64,000 bases of DNA from Naegleria gruberi (taxonomy: Eukaryota): NCBI GenBank assembly GCA_000004985.1, contig GG738852.1; one strand, 5' to 3'. The first letter of the stretch is position 1. The number at the start of each line of letters is the position of its first letter. The notes below the pieces were generated by a model, which was not told the origin of the DNA, made no database searches, and was given only the letters and a program-made list of their open reading frames with translations. Below are positions 2,384 through 46,830 of the stretch, in pieces. The translations under genes and the position numbers were made by a program.

Positions 2384-3814
2384 ATGAGTGAATTGACGAA
2401 ACTCTTTGAGGATGAGAACTTGAAGAAGAACATTTCATCCCTCCTTTTCTTTATGAGTGAAGTCGAGAAGATAGTAGAAAATCCCACTAGTTATGACCTT
2501 CATATCGCTCTGTATATGGGTGTTGAAAAATTGAAAGATTTTCGATTAAGAACCAAACAGTATAAATTCTGGAAATTCGAGAATGTTATTCCTTTGGATG
2601 TCTATACTGTTACTTCGAAGGAGTGTATTTTAGATGCAAAGCTAACTAAGAATGTTATTTGTACAGAATTGATGGAAGAAGAAAGTGAGAAAGCCAGGGC
2701 TGAGCTCTTGCAAAATGAAGACAGCAAGCAAAAGAACTCGGGCAAAAATAAGAAGAATTCACTTACTAGCAAGGAAAGGAAGAAAACAAGTTCAACAGAC
2801 AACTCAAAGTTAGCTACTCCAGAAAGAAGAGAAGATGTCTCAAAGGAATCAAGGTCTAACTCCAAAGAGAAAAAGGAAAAAGAGTGTTCGAAACCAAATG
2901 TCTCAACAACAATTGTTCCAGTGAGAGAGAATGAAAGTATTCCCAAAACCGACAGTGTTAGAAAGGAAATAACAGGGTCTTTACATACCAATGAACAAGA
3001 AGGTAATCCTTTACCTCTTGCTACAACTTCCATTGATACTCAACTAATATTAAAAGTCATGAATAGAAGATTTGATGCTATTGAAGGAGAATTTGGTGCC
3101 TTCAAAACTGGGTTTGATGAATTAGAAAAAAGATTTGGTGCTTTAGAAGAAAGATTTGGTGTTTTAGAAGAAAGATTTGATGTATTAGAAGAAAGATTTG
3201 ATGTATTAGAAGAAAAATTTGATGTATTAGAAAAAAGATTTGATACAATGGAAAATAGAATCTCTTCTGCAATTGGTATGCTTTATGAAATGAGTTTAGA
3301 GCAGATGTTAAAAGATGAAGGCTTTGAGGTCGAATGCAACGTTGTTTATGACGAGAAAAAATTTGGCCCTCAATTTGACAAGTTAAAGAAAGCCAAGACT
3401 TTAAAAAATACCTGGAATAATTGTTTGCGCAATTTAGAACAACAAAAGAGAATTTCTACAACTCAAAGGTATTCCCTTTCTTTCTACTCTCCATCAATTG
3501 AGTTTAACTTTATTGTTAGAGATAATGAAAGAGTTACAACCCTAGTTGTTGAGGCATCCACTAACAACTTGACAGGAAATGCTCTTATTGTTAAGATGCT
3601 CCAATTGGAACGACAAGTAAGATTCTTCCAGGCTTGTAATTGTAATAATTTAGATTACGTAGCATTTATATCCCCAAGCTTGTTTACTAACACAAATGCT
3701 GAAATGTCAAAACTAATAACTGAGTTTCCAGGAGTATTTGAGAATTTAAAAAACTACAAAGCAAAAGGCAGGCTGTTCTTCAACAGAAAAGGAGCAAGGC
3801 TAAAAATTGAATAA
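2384..3814 (+). CDS. Hypothetical Lys/Ser-rich protein with a central coiled-coil built from tandem heptads (RFDVLEE) and a conserved-looking C-terminal globular region
   Basis: ATG at 2384, TAA stop. Long uninterrupted ORF. Internal 21-nt tandem repeat array (3067-3256). Confidence 0.7.
   Translation: MSELTKLFEDENLKKNISSLLFFMSEVEKIVENPTSYDLHIALYMGVEKLKDFRLRTKQYKFWKFENVIPLDVYTVTSKECILDAKLTKNVICTELMEEESEKARAELLQNEDSKQKNSGKNKKNSLTSKERKKTSSTDNSKLATPERREDVSKESRSNSKEKKEKECSKPNVSTTIVPVRENESIPKTDSVRKEITGSLHTNEQEGNPLPLATTSIDTQLILKVMNRRFDAIEGEFGAFKTGFDELEKRFGALEERFGVLEERFDVLEERFDVLEEKFDVLEKRFDTMENRISSAIGMLYEMSLEQMLKDEGFEVECNVVYDEKKFGPQFDKLKKAKTLKNTWNNCLRNLEQQKRISTTQRYSLSFYSPSIEFNFIVRDNERVTTLVVEASTNNLTGNALIVKMLQLERQVRFFQACNCNNLDYVAFISPSLFTNTNAEMSKLITEFPGVFENLKNYKAKGRLFFNRKGARLKIE
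3067..3256 (+). repeat. Nine tandem copies of a 21-nt unit (consensus agatttgatgtattagaagaa) encoding heptads R/K-F-D/G-x-L-E-E/K. Copies 3131-3235 are near-perfect.
   Basis: Direct reading of the sequence. Units stay in frame with the CDS 2384..3814. Confidence 0.85.
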
Positions 3815-37688: not shown

Positions 37689-40122
37689 TTAATCACCAGA
37701 TTTTGCTTTTTTAAACAGCATGTCAGAGTTTTGTTTTGATGAACCCTTGTCGAGCGAATTAAGTGAATGCATGATAAAATCAAACATTACACTATCCCAC
37801 ACTTCGTCCACAAGTTTCATCTTTTCTTGAACAATGTATGTATGGTTGAGTACTGATTTGATGTATGGATTGATAATTCCAGAATATCTATCCAAAACGT
37901 TATTTGCTACAGGTATCGGTATTTGCTTGGCTACGGCTTGTCTTTTACCAAAAATCTTTTCTGAATTGGATTTATCAGTGGATGAAATGGGTTTTCCGTT
38001 CATTTCAACTAATTGTGGGAGAACATATATACAGTAGGGTTTTAAAATTCTTTTTAGGGAAGAGCAGACAGGGTTGTCTTTGAATGAAATCTTGGTCACT
38101 ACAAAATCTAACTTGGAGAGTAGTGATAATTGTTTCAGACTCGAAATGTTATTATTACTGAATGTCAAGCTTGAGGCCATTATCTTTTTTGTGAATAAGA
38201 ATGTTTCACAAATCTTTTCAAGTCCCAAATTATGAAAATGAACATTATAGTCTCCATAATTAATTGGTGTAATGAAAGGTTCTCCGTAAATATGAAGCAT
38301 TTCTCCTTCAATTTGTGTGTATGATGATATTGCAACTTCTGGCATGTGGTTTTCTTCCTTTTCCTTAGCAAATGCTGTTATTATGTCCAAGTTAGGAGTT
38401 GGAGGTGTAGGTGAAATATCTTGAGCATCTGGAGGATGAGAGCTTGCCAGATTAATTTCTATGTTTAGATCTTGCCCGTACTCCAAAGGACTTGGTATTA
38501 GGTCAGTGAAAGGGAATATTGAGGAAACATTAACATTGGCAAGATATTTGAGAGATACATCTCGTTCGGATTCAACAACTTTAGTCGAGTCCAGTATTAC
38601 TAATTTTCTCATTGATGCCAAAGTTATGACTCTATATTTTTGTCCTAGATTTTGTTGTAGAGGGTTATCATCCATAGACAGTTCTGTTAGAGATGTACTT
38701 CTGAGCACACTTTCAACAGAGGCAAACAGTTGAATATTATTCGAAGATAAGAATAGACGTTTTAAATTGGGAAGCTCATCTATTTCTTCTACTTTTTCAA
38801 TCTTTTAAATTTTAGTTTATGAGTCCAGTAAAAATTAACATACCATATTTTTCCTAAGGTTCAATTCATTCAAGGATTGTAATCCTCTAACATTTGAAAC
38901 ATTGGATATTAAATTTCCAGCTAAATTTAATACTCGAACCTCCTTCAAGGATGAAAGATTGGATATTTCCCTAATCTTATTTCCATGAAGATCCAATACA
39001 TCCAATTTGTGTAAATATTCCAACCCTTCAATTTTCTCGATCATGTTTTTCCCCAACATTAAAACTCTGAGAGATAATAAAGAATCCAAATTTGATATTT
39101 TCTTAATCTTATTTCCATATAAATCCAAAAATACCAAGCTCGTCAGATTATTTAAATTGCTTATACTTCTGATTTCGTTATATTGTAAATTCAATAATTT
39201 AAGATTTGTATCACCTGTAATGATTGGGCATTTTGTTAGATTTCTTCGATCAAGATTCAGCCTCTCGTTACTCACTGTTTCCTCAATTTTTGATTCCACA
39301 GTCTTTTCCTTCACCTGTGGAGTATTTTGAGACATTAGATAATTAATTTTTGGAGAGTTTCCTCTTGTAAATCTATTAGGAACTCTTTCATCTGGTTGAT
39401 TATTTCCATTCATCACGGCTGAATTTTGACCTTCTTGAGGTGTTGATGAATATTTAAAGTACATTATGTTGGAAGAATTATTTGAAGGAGAGGCAGAGAC
39501 GGCATTGGGACCATTTTGTAATCGGGGAGTAGTGGCACTTTGAGGTCTTTTGCCTCCCACGCTTGATGTTGTAGTTGTTGTCCTTTTAGAGGAAGCAACA
39601 AGTGTTGACCTCTTTGCTGTCACAGTATTTGAATTTGTTTGATTTTGAGGCGTTATATTTGAAGTAAAATTGGATGTAGGTGTTGAATGTATGCTTTTGA
39701 ATCGTCTGTGTTGATTGAAAAACTCTCTCTATTTTGTATTTGAAGGAATCAAAATCAAACATTTTTAAATACAAATCTATAAAACAACTTACTCCCAACG
39801 AATTCAATGCTGCTTTTCCATTATTATTATTAGTATTATTTGAAACTGAAAAGTATGGTCTTGTATTCGAATTTCCAGCAGTGACAAAAGTATTTGAATT
39901 ATTTCCCGATGATGTACTAGGCAATAGAGAAGTTCCTCCGAGAATACCCAGAGGTCCTTGTTGATTATTGTTCATCATATTGCTATTGAGGTTATTGCTG
40001 AATGGTCGAACTGATGAAGTTGTAAGGAAATTGGCGGAATTGTTTGATAGACTTTGAGCAACACTTTGGCTCATTTTTTTGTAGATGATGCTCAAGGAGG
40101 GAAAAAGAGCAGCAATTTGCAT
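37689..40122 (-). CDS. Leucine-rich-repeat protein (seven or more SDS22-type LRRs) with an N-terminal Asn/Ser-rich region and a large C-terminal domain. Three exons (39793-40122, 38844-39728, 37689-38801).
   Basis: ATG at 40120-40122, with an alternative at 40072-40074. Intron 39729-39792 (64 nt, GTAAGT...ATAG) and intron 38802-38843 (42 nt, GTATGT...AAAG) are both phase 0. The LRR periodicity is continuous across both junctions ('LRKNM|IEKVEEIDELPNLKRLFLSSNNI'). Merges three track ORFs. Confidence 0.75.
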
Positions 40123-40291
40123 GAGCTCGTTTTTTTCCTTTTATGCCAGTCTTACTTTCCATACCAATGAACTTTTAATGAAGTCAATGCCCATCGCTTA
40201 ATTCCCAATATATTTGCTTTCTTTACATTTGCAAATAAGTTGTTTGTTTGACACTTACTATTGGGAATGAAAGAGAGAATTAATAGAAAAA

Positions 40292-40636
40292 ATGTCTCAA
40301 ATCGTTCCATCTTCTTCCTCAAATAATTCATCGTCGCCGTGGTTGGTCACTACAGGAAGTGGTTTTGATAAATCAAGTGATATGACTGCTGTCATTCCTA
40401 TTAGCAATGATATTTACGAATTGGAAAAACAAAAAGTTAGATTTGTCTGTGAAAAGTGTAAAGGATCGGAATATAGATTGGGAGAGGTTAGAAGTTGTGG
40501 TTCTCTGATGGCCAAAATATTCAATGTACAAAATAGAAGATTCATCACTGTGACTTGTTCAACTTGTGGGCATACACAATTCTTTGAATCGACGCAATCT
40601 GCTCTGGCTAATATTTTGGATATTCTCATCAGATAG
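40292..40636 (+). CDS. Small Zn-ribbon protein (CxxC...CxxCGHT) resembling the bacterial/archaeal DUF2082-type zinc-ribbon family, with an N-terminal Ser-rich extension
   Basis: ATG at 40292, stop TAG. 'FVCEKCKGSEYRLGEVRSCGSLMAKIFNVQNRRFITVTCSTCGHTQFF' has a bipartite C2-C2 ribbon with a conserved KIFNVQN spacer. Confidence 0.55.
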   Translation: MSQIVPSSSSNNSSSPWLVTTGSGFDKSSDMTAVIPISNDIYELEKQKVRFVCEKCKGSEYRLGEVRSCGSLMAKIFNVQNRRFITVTCSTCGHTQFFESTQSALANILDILIR

Positions 40637-41024: not shown

Positions 41025-42900
41025 ATGTCTGCCTACTTGGTTTATCCTCCTTCAAATAATTATTATTCATATCAAACACAAGCTTATCCATCTTCTTATG
41101 GTAATCAATACTATGAAAACAATACTAATCGTGGTTCTCCACAGCAGTGGATGATGAATCAATATGGTGGTGTAGTTTCTGATCGGTATCATCAAAACTC
41201 TCAACCATCACATCATACACAACAACAACACACAGCTATATCTTCCGATTATAATTCTTTCATCTCCATTGACTATTATAATGAAGAGGACTTGGAGAGA
41301 GACAATACCTCACAACATAGTAGCAAAACAAGTACATTATGTTGCTACAACTACTCAACAAGCAAATCTTTCCAGACAAAGACACAACAGACAACCTTCA
41401 CATGATTCCTCTGTCATGTCCACAGCCTCTGTGGCATCTTCGGTAAGATCATCAAGGCAACCACAACCAACAACAGCCCAAATACAACAACAGGCACAAT
41501 TTGTAAATAACACAAGAGCAAGCCCAATTGCTTCCATCTCTAACCAAAATTATAATAATAATTATCACAATAATTATCAGTTTCCAACTAGTAATAATAA
41601 TAATAGCTATAGTAATAATAATAATAATTATAATTACAACACCACAAACATAAATTATAGTAAACCTAACAACCTTCAACAAGTAATACCACCACCACAA
41701 ACAAACTATGTACAACAACAACAAATACCACCTCTCTCATTTGCTAATGCAACAAATCATATCACTCATCAAACTTACTCCTCCTTGGAAACAGACTCTT
41801 CTGTTGATATTTGTACAGTAAAGGATGATCATATTTGGATGATTGATAATTTAGTAACTATTGAAGAAGCAGAACAATTAATCGATATCTATCAAGATAT
41901 TTCAAGAAGAACTCAAGAAGCCTTAATACAACAACAAATTCTCCAACAACAACGACGAAATGCCATGTCTGTCAAGTCCATGAGAAGAGGAACCTACTCT
42001 ACTTATGGTGATGAAATGCTAGGTACTCCTTCAGTTATTTCTTCCTCCCAACACAACACAATATCAGACAGAATTCAACATATAGATTATACAAATGACG
42101 AGTTTGCCAACTTTATATTTGAACAATTAAAGGATGTTCTACCACCAGACCAATCCAAGTTGTATGGTGAAAAAGTTGGCAAAACATTCGAATTGAGTGG
42201 AATTTATGAAAAATTCACAGTTTATGAACTAAGGCCTGGTGAAAAAATTGAAAAATCCAAAGGTGAAGACAAGTGTAGAATAATAGAAGTGGAATCTGAT
42301 AATTTAAACAATAAGCTCACTAATGAGCAATACCATGAAAAGAGTTTTTTGACATGTTTAATTTGCTTGAAAGGAGTTGTTGACTACAATGAGCCAAAAC
42401 AACCTAACGGACAACAGTTATTTGGTGTAAATTTCTATGACATGTCTAAGGAAAGACCAGAACATTTCATTGTTTTAGACCACGTTGGCAAGAGCTGCCT
42501 TTTCAGTAATAACACACAATTATTTGAAGTGGTTGAAAATCATGGAACAGAGAATGTTTATTTATTGGCTGTTAATGTAATGTATAGGTCTGTTATTACA
42601 AATTCTCCACTCAGAGCTAATTCTCTAACCAACCAAACTGAGGACAGAGAAAGATCACTCTCAGTATCTTCTACTGCTAGTAATATCTCAATTGATGATA
42701 ATGAAAACATGCACCAATACAGAGAAATACTGCAACAACAACAACAGAAAAAGTCAAACGGGGGAGGTAAATATTTAATGTGGGCCTTTGGAACGAGTTT
42801 CATAGTGTTGACAAGTTTCTTCCTTCAAACTGGAATTAAAGTCAACAAGCCAATCATTTCCAAACTCTTGTCAATACTATCCAAACAATTAAATATATAA
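41025..42900 (+). CDS. Asn/Tyr/Gln-rich (prion-like) protein with a conserved C-terminal globular domain and a C-terminal tail-anchor TM. The reading frame breaks between 41269 and 41405.
   Basis: ATG at 41025 (frame 0) opens a 126-aa N/Q/Y-rich ORF. The main ORF (frame +1, to 42900) has no true start codon and overlaps it. A 31-nt GTACAT...ACAAG segment (41335-41365) would restore the frame, or a 1-nt indel may be present. Confidence 0.5.
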
Positions 42901-43014: not shown

Positions 43015-46000
43015 ATGAGAAACCTCCAATTAATTCATCATCAAGAAATTTCTCTTGTTGAAGCTCTGATTGCCAACAATGATGAAGTTGTTTCTTGTAC
43101 CTCCACCGACAGTGATGTCTTGTTCGGATTATCAAAGAATGGTATTCTCTTTCAAGTGGATATTAAAGAGGGTGCTATAGTAAAGACGGTTAATCTTGGA
43201 GATATTGATGGAATTACACCACAAGCAGAAATGATTGATATTCAATATGTTGCAGAATTGGAATCACTTATTATTATTTCTCAATTTGATATTATTACTT
43301 TTAATATTTCTAATGATACTAGTGAAATTACAGCTTCTATTGAAGAGGGTATCAACGCAATGTCTTGGAGTCCTGATCAAGAAATTGTCATCTTCTCAAC
43401 AGGTAATGGAAATTTACTTACCATGTCCAAACATTTTGAAACTCTCACAGAAGCTCCTTCCGATTTAATACCAACAAAATCCAATACTAGTACAAATACT
43501 GCTGTTAAACAACAAGCAAAACTTACAGAGGAAGTTTCCTCTCGTTTCATAAATAGACCTTTACCAGTTGAAATTAGTTGGAGAAATGATGGTCAATACT
43601 TTGTTTTAAATAGTATGGATCCATCCGATGGAAAGAGATGGTTAAGAGTTTGGGAAAGAAATGGAAATTTAGTTTCAAAGTCGGAACCAATTGATGGTTT
43701 ATTGGGTAATGTTGTTCATTATAGACCTGATGGTAGTATTATTGGTACACACCAATACCATCCTGGTAAAAAGGAAACTACTATTGCTTTCTTTGAAAGA
43801 AATGGTTTGCAACATTATGATTTTGTTTTAGAAAAGGGAATGAGTGATATTTATTCACTTCAATGGAATTCCACTTCAGATGTTTTGTGTGTCACATTCA
43901 AATCAGCTAGTAGAGAAAATACAGTCCTTGTTCAATTGTGGTACAGAGGAAATTATCATTGGTATCTCAAACAAGAATATTCATTCAATGAAAGTGAACA
44001 AGCTCCAACTCATATTACTTGGGATTCAGAATCAGCATATAGACTTCACATTTTCTGTAAGAATGCTAATTATTATTGTTATGATTTATGCTGGGATCAC
44101 AACATGTCACATGGAATGACATCAGAAAATCCATGTTTCATGGCCGTGATTAATGGATTGAAATTGAATTTGACACCACTCAGATATGCTGTCATTCCTC
44201 CTCCAATGTGTGCTGAAAGTATTACATTTGATTTACCAATTAATTGTGTTTCATTCAGTGATTCTTCAAGATGTCTTGCTCAGTTATCTGATGGATCATT
44301 CCACCTCTATCAATTTTCCACCTCTAACAAACCACCAAAATTTGGTTTACCACCAAGCAAACTAGGATCTATCAAACCACTTTCAAATAATCCAGTTAGA
44401 CTTTTGACCATGATTAATGAGAATACTTTCTGTTTTGTTCCACTTACAATTCCAGGTAAATCAGATGCCTTGGTTATTTGTACTATTAATGAAGATTTCA
44501 CGTGTGAAACAAGAGAAGTCTCCTATCCTGAATCCATTCTCAGAATTGCTTACCATTCATATACCGGTAATTTGTTCATTGAAGGAGAATCTGGTGCTCT
44601 CTTTAAACAAAAGATTAATGAAGATATTCCAGAAGAATTAGAAGAAAGATTCGAATATCCATGTCAAATTATTGCTCCAACCATGATGGGCGAGGAAGAA
44701 GTTGTTGTTGGTTTGAATCATAGAGGTATTTTATTTATTGGTTCACACAATGTTGTTTCCAATTGTTCCTCATTCTCTCTCACTGATCAATTCTTACTTT
44801 TCACAACCATGTCACACAAGTTGAGAATTATCAATCTCCATCTTTCAGTTTATGATGCTGTTGATATTGCTGCTAGTGGCCCAACTTCAAAGTACGATGA
44901 AACCTTTAGAGAAATTGAAAGAGGTGCCAGATTAGTTTGTGCAGTTCCATCAGATCTTAACGTTATTCTTCAAATGCCAAGAGGTAACTTGGAAGGTATT
45001 ACCCCTAAGGCTCTTGTACTCTCTAGAGTTAGATCATTATTGAATAACTTTGAATATGGAAAGGCTGTTGTTGCAACTAGAAAGTACAGAATTGATATGA
45101 ATATTATTTATGACCACAACCCAGAATCATTCATTAACAATGCAAAGAAGTTCGTTGAAGATGTTGATAATGCAGACTATATCAACTTGTTCATTTCAAC
45201 CTTGACCAATGAAGACATTACCAAGACTAAATTTGCTGGTTATCATTCTGATGGTAAAACAGTAAAGGGCGAACATCAAACCACAATCACTGAAGTTAAC
45301 AAGATTAACAGAATTTGCGACAAGCTCAGAGAAGTCCTTAATGAAGTTGATAAGAAGAAGTTTATTTCCTCTATTCTGACAACCTATGCTAAATATCAAG
45401 CACCAATGTTAGAAGAAGCTTTGCAATTAATTAGAGAGCTCAAAGCTGCTAATGAAAGAAAGCATTCAGAAGCTGATGAAGCTTTGAGTTATTTGGTATT
45501 CTTGATTGATGTCAATATTCTTTATGATATTGCTTTGGGAATGTACGACTTTGATTTAGTTTTGATGGTTGCTCAAAAATCTCAAAAGGATCCAAAAGAG
45601 TACCTTCCATTCTTGGCTAATCTCAAGAAAATGGAACAATATTATAGACAATACAGTATAGATATGCATCTGTCAAGATTTGAAAAGGCTTTGGAAAATA
45701 TTTCCAAGGCAGGTGCTGAACATTTCCCTGAAGCTGTTGCTCTCATTAGAGAAAAGGGTCTCTTTAAATTGGGTATGCAATTATATGAAAGTGACAAGGA
45801 TAAGCTTTTAGTTATTTTTGAAGCTTATGGTGATTATTTGGTTTCTGTTGGCAATCACAAACAAGCTGCCTTCTCTTTCCTCAAATGCAAAAAGTTCGAA
45901 AAGGCTCAACAATCATTCTTGGAAGCTGGTGAATATGAATTTGTATTCTCACTTACCAAAACTTTGAATCAACAAGCTCAAGACATTAAGAAGATTGCTA

Positions 46001-46830
46001 AGAGTGCTATGATTATCATGGAAGCTAAGAAGAACTATATTGCCTCCTCAAATATTTGTCGTGATTACCTCAATGATAATGAAGAGGCTGTTCTTAGATT
46101 GGTTGCTGGTAAGGAATGGAAGGAAGCAATCAGAGTTGCCATTTCAACTGGAAGAAGCGATCTTATTGAAACCCACATCAAACAAGGAGTTTTTGATTCT
46201 GCTAAGGAAATTACCAATGACTTGGCCGAAAATGAGACTAAATTGTCCAAATATATTAGTCGTCTTAAGGAATTGAGAGAGGAAAAGGAAAGAATATTGA
46301 GAGAACAATTATTATTACAACAACATAATGATGGAGAATTTGGTGAAGATATGCCACACAATTTTGATGCTCTCTCAGAGGCTAGTAGTATGCAAAGTGG
46401 TATCAGTGGTTATTCTGGTGTCTCAGTTTTATCTACAAGATCATCTGTTTCATCAGTCGTTTCAAAGAGAACAATTTCAAGAAAGAAGAAGAATAGAGAA
46501 AAACTGAAGAAGGGTTCACCATTTGAAGAAGGTACTTTGGTTTCAAGAATTGAATCCCTTATACCATCATCAGTGTCTATTTCTTCCGTTTCTTCACTTT
46601 TGGAAGTTCTTATTTACTTTGACAAATTCGAGGAGGCTAAAGCTTTACAAGTTGGTCTCGAAACCCTTATCAAGACTTGTCGTGACAATGCCGAATTGAT
46701 TGAAGAACCATTCCAACCTCCACAAATTGAAAATGAACCAGTTCCTCCAACAAGATATCCAAGAAAAGTTGCTGAAATTATTGGTGGTGATTTGGACAAG
46801 TTATCTTGGAAATTGAATTTACTTGAATAA
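43015..46830 (+). CDS. ELP1: Elongator complex protein 1 (IKI3/IKAP family)
   Basis: ATG at 43015. Collinear conserved blocks: '[15 protein letters not shown]', '[16 protein letters not shown]', 'VIPPPMCAE', 'LQMPRGNLE', '[29 protein letters not shown]', the basic '[20 protein letters not shown]' region, and a terminal 'WKLNLLE*'. Confidence 0.92.
   Translation: [1271 protein letters not shown]

What the first reader, a model, noticed from the sequence alone, without database searches (positions are those of the whole stretch)
40292..40636. Bacterial-type C2-C2 Zn-ribbon mini-protein encoded as a stand-alone eukaryotic gene
The core 'FVCEKCKGSEYRLGEVRSCGSLMAKIFNVQNRRFITVTCSTCGHTQFF' matches the architecture of small prokaryotic Zn-ribbon (DUF2082-like) nucleic-acid-binding proteins: CxxC, then ~15 aa, then G, then a 'K(I/F)F(D/N)VQN(R/K)(K/R)F' spacer, then CxxCG(H/Y)T. 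Here it is fused to a Ser-rich eukaryote-style N-terminal extension. It is also one of the few genes in the window ending in TAG. It could be a horizontally acquired gene or an unrecognised conserved eukaryotic family.
Basis: partly seen in the sequence, partly recalled or inferred. Interest (0 to 1): 0.5.

Follow-up and report, generated by a model that had tools for sequence, protein, structure and literature searches.

The report
Old bacterial-type zinc-ribbon gene in Naegleria
This is a real, strongly conserved Naegleria gruberi gene for a small zinc-ribbon protein of the uncharacterised, mostly prokaryotic DUF2082/YpzJ family; it belongs to an old protist-specific branch of that family and is not a recent bacterial import, and what it does is still unknown.

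Summary
The ORF at 40292-40636 (+) is real: 114 aa, ATG to TAG. It matches Pfam PF09855 (Zn_ribbon_13/DUF2082) over the full model (E=5e-25, 87.9 bits, cut-off 23). The window is Naegleria gruberi nuclear DNA, and the protein is identical to an NCBI 'predicted protein'.

Orthologs exist in N. fowleri (sharing an LRR neighbour gene) and Willaertia. dN/dS is 0.03-0.11 and composition matches the host.

An exhaustive HMMER search shows the nearest relatives are other protist proteins, not bacterial ones: Acrasis (four sequences on record), Pharyngomonas, the jakobid Andalucia (2), Malawimonas, and a second divergent Naegleria/Willaertia paralog.

All eukaryote-type sequences share three features:
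- an N-terminal extension;
- a tail ending exactly 22 residues after the second CxxC in Arg/Lys;
- Glu where the prokaryotic forms examined have mostly Lys/Arg.

The prokaryotic forms (about 70 aa, many phyla) are uniformly 30-43% identical, so no donor stands out. Viruses essentially lack the family.

Recent HGT is therefore rejected. An ancient prokaryote-derived, patchily retained protist family fits best, although NJ bootstrap support is weak.

Function is unknown for every family member. The fold is a three-stranded Cys4 zinc ribbon with an amphipathic C-terminal helix, so I infer a small zinc-stabilised binding/adaptor protein. Interest is modest.

The parts
40292..40636 (+). Complete intron-less coding sequence, 114 codons plus TAG stop. 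It is the N. gruberi 'subclade A' member of the eukaryote-type Zn_ribbon_13 family.
   Evidence: ORF listing and sequence. 100% identical to NCBI 'predicted protein [Naegleria gruberi]'. dN/dS 0.03-0.11 against orthologs.
40292..40390 (+). Residues 1-33: variable, hydrophilic Ser/Asn/Thr-rich N-terminal extension, predicted disordered. Prokaryotic family members have no equivalent.
   Evidence: Alignment A1 shows no conservation here apart from two Asn. pLDDT is below 50. It has 1 basic and 2 acidic residues in the first 30 and no hydrophobic segment.
40394..40429 (+). Residues 35-46, 'IPISNDIYELEK': a short conserved motif just upstream of the ribbon. IPISND is invariant in Naegleria and Willaertia, and part of it is predicted helical.
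   Evidence: Invariant columns I35-D40. Helix at model residues 7-13, which are protein residues 40-46. A related [ILVM][IV]P motif is enriched in the N-extensions of subclades A and C, but I defined that motif after seeing the data.
40445..40630 (+). Residues 52-113: Zn_ribbon_13 (PF09855/DUF2082) domain.
   Evidence: Pfam E=5e-25, profile 1-62/63. AF2 model shows a three-stranded sheet plus a C-terminal helix.
40448..40459 (+). First zinc knuckle, C53-E-K-C56.
   Evidence: Read directly from the sequence. The Cys columns are invariant in alignments A1, A3 and A4.
40514..40543 (+). Residues 75-84, 'KIFNVQNRRF': the most conserved non-Cys motif of the family and the presumed interaction surface.
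   Evidence: K, F, V, Q, N and F are invariant in alignment A4. K75, Q80 and F84 are nearly invariant in A3.
40556..40576 (+). Second zinc knuckle with its conserved extension, C89-S-T-C92-G-H-T95.
   Evidence: Sequence. C, C, G and T are invariant.
40598..40633 (+). Residues 103-114, 'SALANILDILIR': amphipathic C-terminal helix ending in the terminal Arg that marks the eukaryote-type subfamily.
   Evidence: Helix in the AF2 model. Hydrophobic moment 0.59. The last residue is R or K in 30 of 30 eukaryote-type sequences and R in 2 of 80 prokaryotic loci.
40123..40291 (.). Short intergenic region shared with the divergently transcribed LRR gene (37689..40122, minus strand). Presumed bidirectional promoter region; this is inference only.
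   Evidence: ORF map. LRR Pfam hits. The LRR gene is also the near neighbour of the ortholog in N. fowleri.

Best explanation
The ORF is a genuine, vertically inherited nuclear gene of Naegleria gruberi. It encodes a 114-aa protein made of a disordered Ser/Asn-rich N-terminus, a short conserved motif (IPISND..ELEK) and a C-terminal Cys4 zinc ribbon of Pfam family PF09855 (Zn_ribbon_13/DUF2082; Bacillus subtilis YpzJ is the named prokaryotic member).

It is one paralog ('A') of a eukaryote-type branch of this otherwise prokaryotic family. The branch is found in Heterolobosea (Naegleria, Willaertia, Acrasis, Pharyngomonas), the jakobid Andalucia and Malawimonas, with two or more copies per genome in the species sampled. 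It is marked by an N-terminal extension, a C-terminus that stops at an Arg/Lys exactly 22 residues after the second CxxC, and a Lys/Arg-to-Glu change after the second knuckle. The gene is ultimately of prokaryotic ancestry, but it was acquired anciently, at the latest in the Naegleria-Willaertia ancestor and probably much earlier.

Mechanism (inferred, not shown): four Cys bind one structural Zn and hold a three-stranded ribbon. The invariant K-x-F-N-V-Q-N-R/K-R/K-F loop and the amphipathic C-terminal helix form a binding surface for a conserved partner, either a nucleic acid or a protein of a housekeeping machine. The protein has no catalytic domain, so it would act as a small binder or adaptor. 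The eukaryotic N-terminal extension would add localisation or partner specificity: hydrophilic and presumably soluble in this paralog, hydrophobic and basic (anchor- or presequence-like) in paralog B.
For: - Family membership: Pfam match E=5e-25 over the full model.
- Identity and context: identical to a Naegleria gruberi protein on a 939-kb scaffold. ELP1 and LRR genes flank it. GC 0.365 and GC3 0.30, against 0.32-0.38 for the window.
- Orthologs: N. fowleri 76%, Willaertia 60%, with the domain nearly invariant. The LRR gene is a shared neighbour in N. fowleri. dN/dS is 0.029-0.11 with saturated dS.
- Nearest relatives: in an exhaustive phmmer search the closest hits are protist proteins with N-extensions, namely Acrasis kona (four sequences), Pharyngomonas, Malawimonas, Andalucia (2), and paralog B in N. 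fowleri, N. gruberi and Willaertia. Two unnamed members sit on clearly eukaryotic contigs.
- Phylogeny and signature: the NJ tree puts all eukaryote-type sequences in one clade. Terminal R/K is 30/30, against R in 2/80 prokaryotic loci; the tail length is fixed at 22; Glu at +7 is 28/30, against mostly K/R in prokaryotes.
- No donor: prokaryotic relatives from more than 10 phyla are uniformly 30-43% identical. Only 1 of 2.9 million viral contigs has a relative.
- Structure: the AF2 model (pLDDT 67) has three strands plus a C-terminal helix. The best compact superpositions are the RPB9/TFIIS and NrdR zinc ribbons. C-terminal helix µH is 0.59.
Against: - Strict monophyly of the eukaryote-type set has only 3% NJ bootstrap support (median best-split Jaccard 0.87). 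Two long-branch sequences of unknown origin intrude.
- Eukaryote-eukaryote identities between subclades (36-47%) barely exceed eukaryote-prokaryote identities, so more than one acquisition cannot be excluded.
- I defined the eukaryote set partly by its tail. However, the 18 sequences recognised independently, by name or by contig context, all carry it.
- Only the best 150 of 332 hits were visible, so weaker eukaryotic members may have been missed.
- No member of PF09855 has an experimentally known function.
- Expression of this particular gene was not checked. Only homologs from Pharyngomonas and Malawimonas come from transcript data.
Confidence: 0.75

Rival explanations
1. Recent horizontal transfer: a bacterial ypzJ-like gene entered the Naegleria gruberi lineage recently and gained an N-terminal extension.
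For: The family is overwhelmingly prokaryotic: more than 582 confirmed hits in bacterial and archaeal genomes from one pattern. Naegleria is a bacterivore. The gene has no intron.
Against: Orthologs occur in N. fowleri and Willaertia with a shared neighbour gene. Synonymous sites are saturated between the Naegleria species. Composition matches the host. The best bacterial identity is only about 50%, and it is flat across phyla. The closest relatives are other protists.
Confidence: 0.03
2. Several independent ancient acquisitions, or eukaryote-to-eukaryote transfers among bacterivorous protists, produced the patchy distribution and the subclades A, B and C. On this reading there was no single early acquisition followed by duplication and loss.
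For: Bootstrap support for one eukaryotic clade is weak. Subclade B is no closer to A (41%) than A is to some prokaryotic groups (up to 43% mean). The distribution is limited to Heterolobosea, one jakobid and one malawimonad.
Against: All three subclades share the exact stop position, the terminal Arg/Lys and the Glu at +7. These features are rare or absent in the prokaryotic forms examined. The point-estimate NJ tree unites them.
Confidence: 0.2
3. Functional rival: the Cys4 site is a redox-sensitive zinc switch or thiol partner working with thioredoxin-fold proteins, not a purely structural zinc in a nucleic-acid or protein binder.
For: At least ten distinct 50%-identity clusters fuse an N-terminal AhpC/TSA (peroxiredoxin-like) domain to a C-terminal Zn_ribbon_13. 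Eight were confirmed by Pfam and two more are aligned over their full length.
Against: All fusions fall in a single NJ clade, implying one fusion event. Most fused AhpC/TSA-like domains lack the peroxidatic Cys, judged by eye in alignment A5, so a thiol relay is unlikely. Neither Naegleria nor the 80 prokaryotic loci show a conserved redox neighbour.
Confidence: 0.12
4. Artefact: a spurious ORF, or bacterial contamination of the assembly.
For: The ORF is short (114 aa), and an antisense ORF of 71 aa overlaps it.
Against: Pfam E=5e-25. Purifying selection acts in this frame. The gene is embedded between eukaryotic genes (LRR, ELP1) on a scaffold of uniform composition. The same locus is found in two independent N. 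fowleri assemblies.
Confidence: 0.01

Closest known systems
Pfam PF09855 Zn_ribbon_13 (DUF2082), e.g. Bacillus subtilis YpzJ (UniProt C0H447, BSU23328)
   Same: Full-length domain match. Two CxxC knuckles about 32 residues apart, the K-x-F-[ND]-[VI]-Q-N-[KR]-[KR]-F loop, C-x2-C-G-[YH]-T, and a C-terminal N-x-x-D amphipathic helix.
   Different: Prokaryotic members are about 70-aa stand-alone domains ending mostly in N or G, with K/R after the second knuckle. The Naegleria protein has a 52-aa N-terminal extension, ends in Arg and has Glu at that position. No function is known for YpzJ: it is listed as 'Unknown', though the protein was detected in a sporulation proteome.
Eukaryote-type paralogs B and C of the same family (N. 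fowleri FDP41_011374, Willaertia ABK040_002820, Acrasis kona KAL0489778, Andalucia ANDGO_00704, Malawimonas EC723130)
   Same: The same domain at the extreme C-terminus, the same tail length and terminal basic residue, and an N-terminal extension.
   Different: Only 41-46% identical to this gene's subclade in the domain. Subclade B has a hydrophobic and basic N-terminus (anchor- or presequence-like), whereas this gene's is hydrophilic. In one metagenomic contig, and probably in one EukProt species, subclade C sits head-to-head with RPS4e.
TFIIS domain III / RPB9 C-terminal zinc ribbon (PF01096) and the NrdR N-terminal zinc ribbon
AhpC/TSA-Zn_ribbon_13 fusion proteins (unnamed prokaryotic clusters P0075, P0083, P0085, P0097 and others)
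   Same: They carry the same Zn_ribbon_13 domain at the C-terminus (E 1e-19 to 1e-22).
   Different: They are about 250 aa with a thioredoxin-fold N-domain that mostly lacks the peroxidatic Cys. They form a separate NJ clade from the eukaryotic proteins.

Membership tests
Pfam PF09855 Zn_ribbon_13 / DUF2082 | Score above the curated gathering threshold, with the match covering the whole model | tested here: met
   87.9 bits against a cut-off of 23. E=5e-25. Profile positions 1-62 of 63, residues 52-113.
Pfam PF09855 Zn_ribbon_13 / DUF2082 | Four Cys in two CxxC knuckles separated by about 30-34 residues | tested here: met
   C53/C56 and C89/C92, 32 residues apart. These columns are invariant across alignments A3 and A4.
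Pfam PF09855 Zn_ribbon_13 / DUF2082 | Conserved inter-knuckle motif K-x-F-[ND]-[VI]-Q-N-[KR]-[KR]-F and the C-x2-C-G-[YH]-T extension | tested here: met
   K75-IFNVQNRR-F84 and C89-STC-GHT95.
Pfam PF09855 Zn_ribbon_13 / DUF2082 | C-terminal helix with conserved N-x-x-D | tested here: met
   N107 and D110 are conserved (D invariant, N nearly invariant in A3). The helix is predicted in the model.
Pfam PF09855 Zn_ribbon_13 / DUF2082 | Typical architecture: a stand-alone domain of about 70 aa | tested here: not met
   The median prokaryotic ORF is 70 aa. This protein is 114 aa with a 52-aa N-extension. It is a variant architecture and does not exclude domain membership.
Pfam PF09855 Zn_ribbon_13 / DUF2082 | Zinc binding and nucleic-acid binding, as implied by the family name | not testable with these tools
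   No experimental data were found for any member. There is no solved structure.
TFIIS/RPB9-type zinc ribbon (PF01096, PF02150) | Significant sequence match to the family model | tested here: not met
   PF01096 E=0.98 (9.7 bits against 21). PF02150 E=0.045 (14.1 bits against 25.2).
TFIIS/RPB9-type zinc ribbon (PF01096, PF02150) | Fold similarity | tested here: inconclusive
Recent bacterium-to-Naegleria HGT | Absent from sister taxa, nested in a bacterial clade, atypical composition | tested here: not met
   Present in N. fowleri, Willaertia and Acrasis. It clusters with protist sequences. GC and GC3 are host-like.
Mitochondrial endosymbiont-derived (EGT) gene | Alphaproteobacterial sister group | not tested
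   No Proteobacteria appear among the best 80 prokaryotic loci, but that list was chosen by one pattern and by similarity. A resolved tree could not be obtained with the tools available.
Mitochondrial endosymbiont-derived (EGT) gene | Mitochondrial targeting presequence on the product | tested here: not met
   This paralog's N-terminus is hydrophilic, with 2 acidic and 1 basic residues in the first 30. Only subclade B has presequence- or anchor-like N-termini. This was judged by composition only; no targeting predictor was available.

The most novel reading that the evidence does not exclude
The eukaryote-type Zn_ribbon_13 family may be a relic of a very early prokaryote-derived acquisition, at or near LECA and possibly from the mitochondrial endosymbiont. 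On this reading it duplicated into soluble forms (A, C) and membrane- or organelle-directed forms (B), and survives only in 'excavate' lineages that keep gene-rich, bacteria-like mitochondria (Heterolobosea, jakobids, malawimonads). It would then be a marker for an ancestral cellular function lost in all well-studied eukaryotes, and a rare shared character linking Discoba and malawimonads.
Probability: 0.15. Interest if true: 0.55.

Novelty: new member of a known kind. Interest (0 to 1): 0.3.

Why it matters
In itself the gene is a database-annotated member of a known domain family with no known function. What this analysis adds is threefold. The eukaryotic copies form a distinct, old, multi-paralog branch. 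That branch is confined, as far as visible, to Heterolobosea, a jakobid and Malawimonas. It carries clear sequence signatures and has no identifiable bacterial donor. Patchy 'excavate-only' genes of prokaryotic type bear on what early eukaryotes contained and on how often apparent HGT candidates in protist genomes turn out to be old residents. Practically, the strict conservation (dN/dS about 0.03) in Naegleria, including the pathogen N. fowleri, and the absence of any human sequence among the hits seen make it a cheap target for a first functional study of DUF2082. If nothing beyond a generic zinc-ribbon binder emerges, it is ordinary.

Tried and rejected
- COG3478 as the COG equivalent of DUF2082 was a wrong recollection of mine. 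In the one paper found it refers to the PuuD urate oxidase.
- Full-text searches for DUF2082, PF09855, Zn_ribbon_13 and IPR018652 found no papers. Papers mentioning YpzJ only list it as unknown.
- The first AF2 run, with 4 sequences, was unusable (pLDDT 47).
- The afdb50 fold library was not available.
- Prokaryotic gene neighbourhoods (80 loci): there is no neighbour conserved across phyla, only lineage-specific synteny. Flavobacteriaceae have GlnRS-like and FolB-like neighbours; Bacteroidales have GlyRS-like, OTCase-like and SPFH-like neighbours. These identities were judged by eye and not scanned.
- The upstream ~70-aa ORFs in Latescibacterota are not paralogs.
- Viral route: 1 relative in 2.9 million viral contigs and no PHROG for the Naegleria protein.
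- Defence system: no PADLOC hit.
- Andalucia predicted mitoproteome: ANDGO_00704 and ANDGO_00387 were not found, but the main table is truncated in the stored copy, so this is inconclusive.
- Placing the unnamed EukProt organism by RPS4e identity was ambiguous.
- Synteny beyond the LRR gene: the N. fowleri downstream gene is not in the window, and Willaertia shares no neighbour.
- The exact N. gruberi protein is not indexed in the encoding-contig collection.
- No Rfam family or tRNA occurs in the window.

Full report
**Observation.** The quoted core peptide is residues 51-98, and the described layout is exact: C53-x2-C56, G70, K75-IFNVQNRR-F84, C89-x2-C92-G-H-T95. The N-terminal third is Ser/Asn-rich. 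Among 38 large ATG-to-stop ORFs in the window (not curated gene models), 32 end in TAA, 4 in TAG and 2 in TGA. The TAG remark is therefore correct but carries no information. No second copy exists in the window.

**What it is.** Pfam scores the protein at 87.9 bits (E=5e-25, cut-off 23) against PF09855, Zn_ribbon_13 / DUF2082, covering profile positions 1-62 of 63. NCBIfam, PHROGs and PADLOC give nothing meaningful. The protein is 100% identical to an NCBI 'predicted protein' of Naegleria gruberi on a 939-kb scaffold. The surroundings are plainly eukaryotic and nuclear:
- a multi-exon LRR gene is transcribed divergently, starting about 170 bp upstream;
- an unknown N/Q-rich ORF lies downstream;
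- a complete five-domain ELP1 (Elongator) gene sits at 43015-46830.

GC is uniform along the window (0.32-0.38). The gene's GC (0.365) and GC3 (0.30) match the host. Contamination and a spurious ORF are excluded.

**Orthologs and selection.** N. fowleri (141 aa, 76% identity), a Naegleria-like metagenome contig (110 aa) and Willaertia magna (149 aa, 60%) have orthologs. In these the last ~65 residues are almost invariant, the N-terminus is variable, and a short IPISND motif is invariant. In N. fowleri the same LRR gene lies within 2 kb of the ortholog, but in a different arrangement. No other neighbour is shared, and Willaertia shares none. Nei-Gojobori dN/dS over the conserved 81 codons is 0.029 (N. 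gruberi vs N. fowleri; dS about 2.8, effectively saturated) and 0.043 (vs the metagenomic ortholog). Over the last 66 codons it is 0.11 (vs Willaertia). This is an old gene under strong purifying selection.

**Wider family.** I ran an exhaustive phmmer search of 1.84 billion cluster representatives with residues 34-114. It gave 332 hits at E<=1e-3, of which the best 150 are visible. The top hits are not typical bacterial proteins. They are 83-280-aa proteins with the domain at the extreme C-terminus. Source look-ups and a profile search identify them as follows:
- Acrasis kona: four sequences on record, two of which share one 90% cluster;
- Pharyngomonas kirbyi: a transcript;
- Malawimonas jakobiformis: an EST;
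- Andalucia godoyi: two proteins, labelled 'YpzJ' by EukProt;
- an unnamed EukProt species;
- a second, divergent paralog in N. fowleri (FDP41_011374), N. gruberi (EFC36844, partial) and Willaertia (ABK040_002820).

Two unnamed members lie on contigs whose other genes are unmistakably eukaryotic: RPS4e, Vps26, Ras and F-box on one, and ATG8, INTS2 and BTB on the other. The RPS4e of one of these contigs is closest to Naegleria and Willaertia (65-66%). No animal, fungal, plant or SAR sequence appears in the visible list.

**Prokaryotic side.** One back-translated pattern found more than 582 confirmed relatives in a one-genome-per-species collection. They come from Bacteroidota, Chloroflexota, Latescibacterota, Cloacimonadota, Marinimicrobia, Firmicutes, Bifidobacterium, Spirochaetes, Planctomycetes and a Methanobacteriota MAG. 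All are ORFs of about 70 aa. Mean identity of every prokaryotic group to each eukaryotic subclade is flat at 30-43%, so no donor lineage is visible. Only one of 2.9 million viral contigs carries a relative.

**Single branch or several?** A BLOSUM62-distance NJ tree of 167 domains puts all eukaryote-type sequences in one clade, with two long-branch intruders at its base. Within it are subclade A (this gene), B, C and a small basal pair. B mixes Heterolobosea with Andalucia and Malawimonas. A bootstrap with Kimura distances supports strict monophyly in only 3% of replicates, although the set stays largely together (median best-split Jaccard 0.87). The Naegleria+Willaertia A group gets 66%. With 67 columns this question is unresolved.

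Discrete characters are more telling. All 30 eukaryote-type sequences stop exactly 22 residues after the second CxxC, on Arg (28) or Lys (2). In 28 of 30 the residue at +7 is Glu, usually as 'ER'. In the 80 named prokaryotic loci the last residue is N (42) or G (24), with R in only 2, and +7 is mostly Lys/Arg. The 18 sequences I could call eukaryotic independently of these characters, by name or by contig context, all have them. I therefore favour one old acquisition followed by duplication and loss, and give about 0.2 to multiple or eukaryote-to-eukaryote transfers.

**Clues to function.**
- Literature: full-text searches find nothing on DUF2082 or PF09855. B. subtilis YpzJ is listed as 'Unknown', although the protein was detected by proteomics.
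- Prokaryotic neighbourhoods show only lineage-specific synteny and no conserved partner.
- One recurrent fusion exists: an N-terminal AhpC/TSA (thioredoxin-fold) domain plus Zn_ribbon_13, in at least ten 50%-identity clusters. All of them form a single NJ clade, and most lack the peroxidatic Cys. This is a weak pointer to a Trx-fold partner and not evidence for a redox relay.
- The domain's net charge is only +3, so the Pfam 'nucleic-acid-binding' label is a prediction with little support.
- The eukaryotic N-extensions differ by subclade. A and C are hydrophilic. B is hydrophobic and basic with no acidic residues, for example Malawimonas +5/-0 and N. fowleri B with a KD-19 maximum of 1.95, so it resembles an anchor or a presequence.
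- A check of the Andalucia predicted mitoproteome was inconclusive because the stored table is truncated.

**Most likely mechanism (inferred).** One structural Zn is held by C53, C56, C89 and C92 and stabilises the ribbon. The invariant K-x-F-N-V-Q-N-R/K-R/K-F loop, the G-[HY]-T after the second knuckle and the amphipathic C-terminal helix (N107, D110) form a binding surface. The protein has no catalytic domain, so it would act as a small binder or adaptor of a conserved housekeeping component, either a nucleic acid or a protein. The N-terminal extension would tune localisation or partners. I put about 0.75 on the identity and evolutionary statement, and only about 0.3-0.4 on the binder mechanism as stated.

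**Comparison and verdict.** The gene is a bona fide member of PF09855. All sequence-defined features are met. The ~70-aa stand-alone architecture is not met, and zinc and nucleic-acid binding cannot be tested here. It is not a TFIIS/RPB9 family member (sequence test not met, fold similarity inconclusive). The criteria for recent HGT are not met.

Of its two readings, 'unrecognised conserved eukaryotic family' fits better, with the qualification that the family is confined to a few protist lineages and is ultimately prokaryotic in type. Databases already tag these proteins with the Pfam domain, so this is a new member, or a mildly distinct eukaryotic branch, of a known uncharacterised family. 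Interest is modest (0.3). The most novel reading still open is a LECA-era or endosymbiont-derived relic surviving only in 'excavates' with bacteria-like mitochondria. I give that about 0.15.

Noticed in passing
L086 8863-10366; EukProt proteins P0156 and P0222: The subclade-C Zn_ribbon_13 gene sits head-to-head with the 40S ribosomal protein S4e gene on a heterolobosean-like metagenome contig. In an unnamed EukProt species the two genes have consecutive numbers (gene10470 and gene10471), which suggests the same adjacency. On another contig (L087) the gene lies next to ATG8, a class-II aminoacyl-tRNA synthetase and a peptidyl-tRNA hydrolase. In Bacteroidota the neighbours include GlnRS-like or GlyRS-like genes. 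This gives the neighbourhoods a weak 'translation' flavour that I did not test statistically.
   Followed up: partly
proteins P0075, P0083, P0085, P0097, P0107, P0109, P0114, P0132, P0134, P0151 (alignment A5): A clade of ~250-aa prokaryotic proteins fuses an AhpC/TSA (peroxiredoxin-like) domain to Zn_ribbon_13 through a Pro-rich linker. By eye, most lack the peroxidatic Cys of the canonical motif, so they would be pseudo-peroxiredoxins. Their source organisms were not identified.
   Followed up: partly
proteins P0028 (N. fowleri FDP41_011374), P0050 (N. gruberi EFC36844.1, partial), P0077 (Willaertia ABK040_002820); elsewhere in those genomes, not in this window: There is a second, divergent Naegleria/Willaertia paralog of the family. 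It has a hydrophobic, basic N-terminus (signal-anchor- or presequence-like), a conserved '(F/Y)P(K/N/R)Q..(V/I)L' motif before the ribbon, and a tail ending in K or R.
   Followed up: partly
window 40394-40411 and the N-extensions of P0005, P0006, P0012, P0018, P0026, P0156: A short hydrophobic-Pro motif ([ILVM][IV]P, e.g. VIPISND, LVPWNP, IVPYRG) recurs in the otherwise unconserved N-terminal extensions. It occurs in 10 of 16 subclade A and C proteins, against a mean of 1.5 in shuffles. I defined the motif after seeing the data, and related sequences are not independent.
   Followed up: partly
proteins P0010 (251 aa) and P0121 (238 aa): These proteins have three matched stretches of Zn_ribbon_13 each (confirmed by Pfam for P0010). 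Their origin is unknown. P0121 intrudes at the base of the eukaryote-type clade in the NJ tree.
   Followed up: no
window 43015-46830 (+): A complete ELP1 (Elongator subunit 1) gene in a single ORF, with all five ELP1 Pfam domains.
   Followed up: partly
window 37689-40122 (-); L001 12198-14861 (-): A multi-exon leucine-rich-repeat gene is the only neighbour shared between the N. gruberi and N. fowleri loci. It is divergent from the Zn-ribbon gene in N. gruberi, and convergent with one gene in between in N. fowleri, which implies a local rearrangement.
   Followed up: partly
window 41025-42900 (+): An Asn/Gln-rich ORF, or pair of ORFs (126 aa and 543 aa in different frames, probably joined by an intron), with no Pfam match and no counterpart next to the N. 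fowleri ortholog.
   Followed up: no
protein P0115 (223 aa): An ABC_tran fragment plus an ABC2_membrane_7 fragment, followed by a prokaryote-type Zn_ribbon_13. It is probably a chimeric or frameshifted gene call.
   Followed up: no
L085 (GCA_900089805.1, FLOH01000191.1) 3001-3213: P0159 is one of the 70-aa forms that are sister to the eukaryote-type clade in the NJ tree. It lies next to a TraG/TrwB-like coupling-protein gene. The organism was not identified.
   Followed up: no
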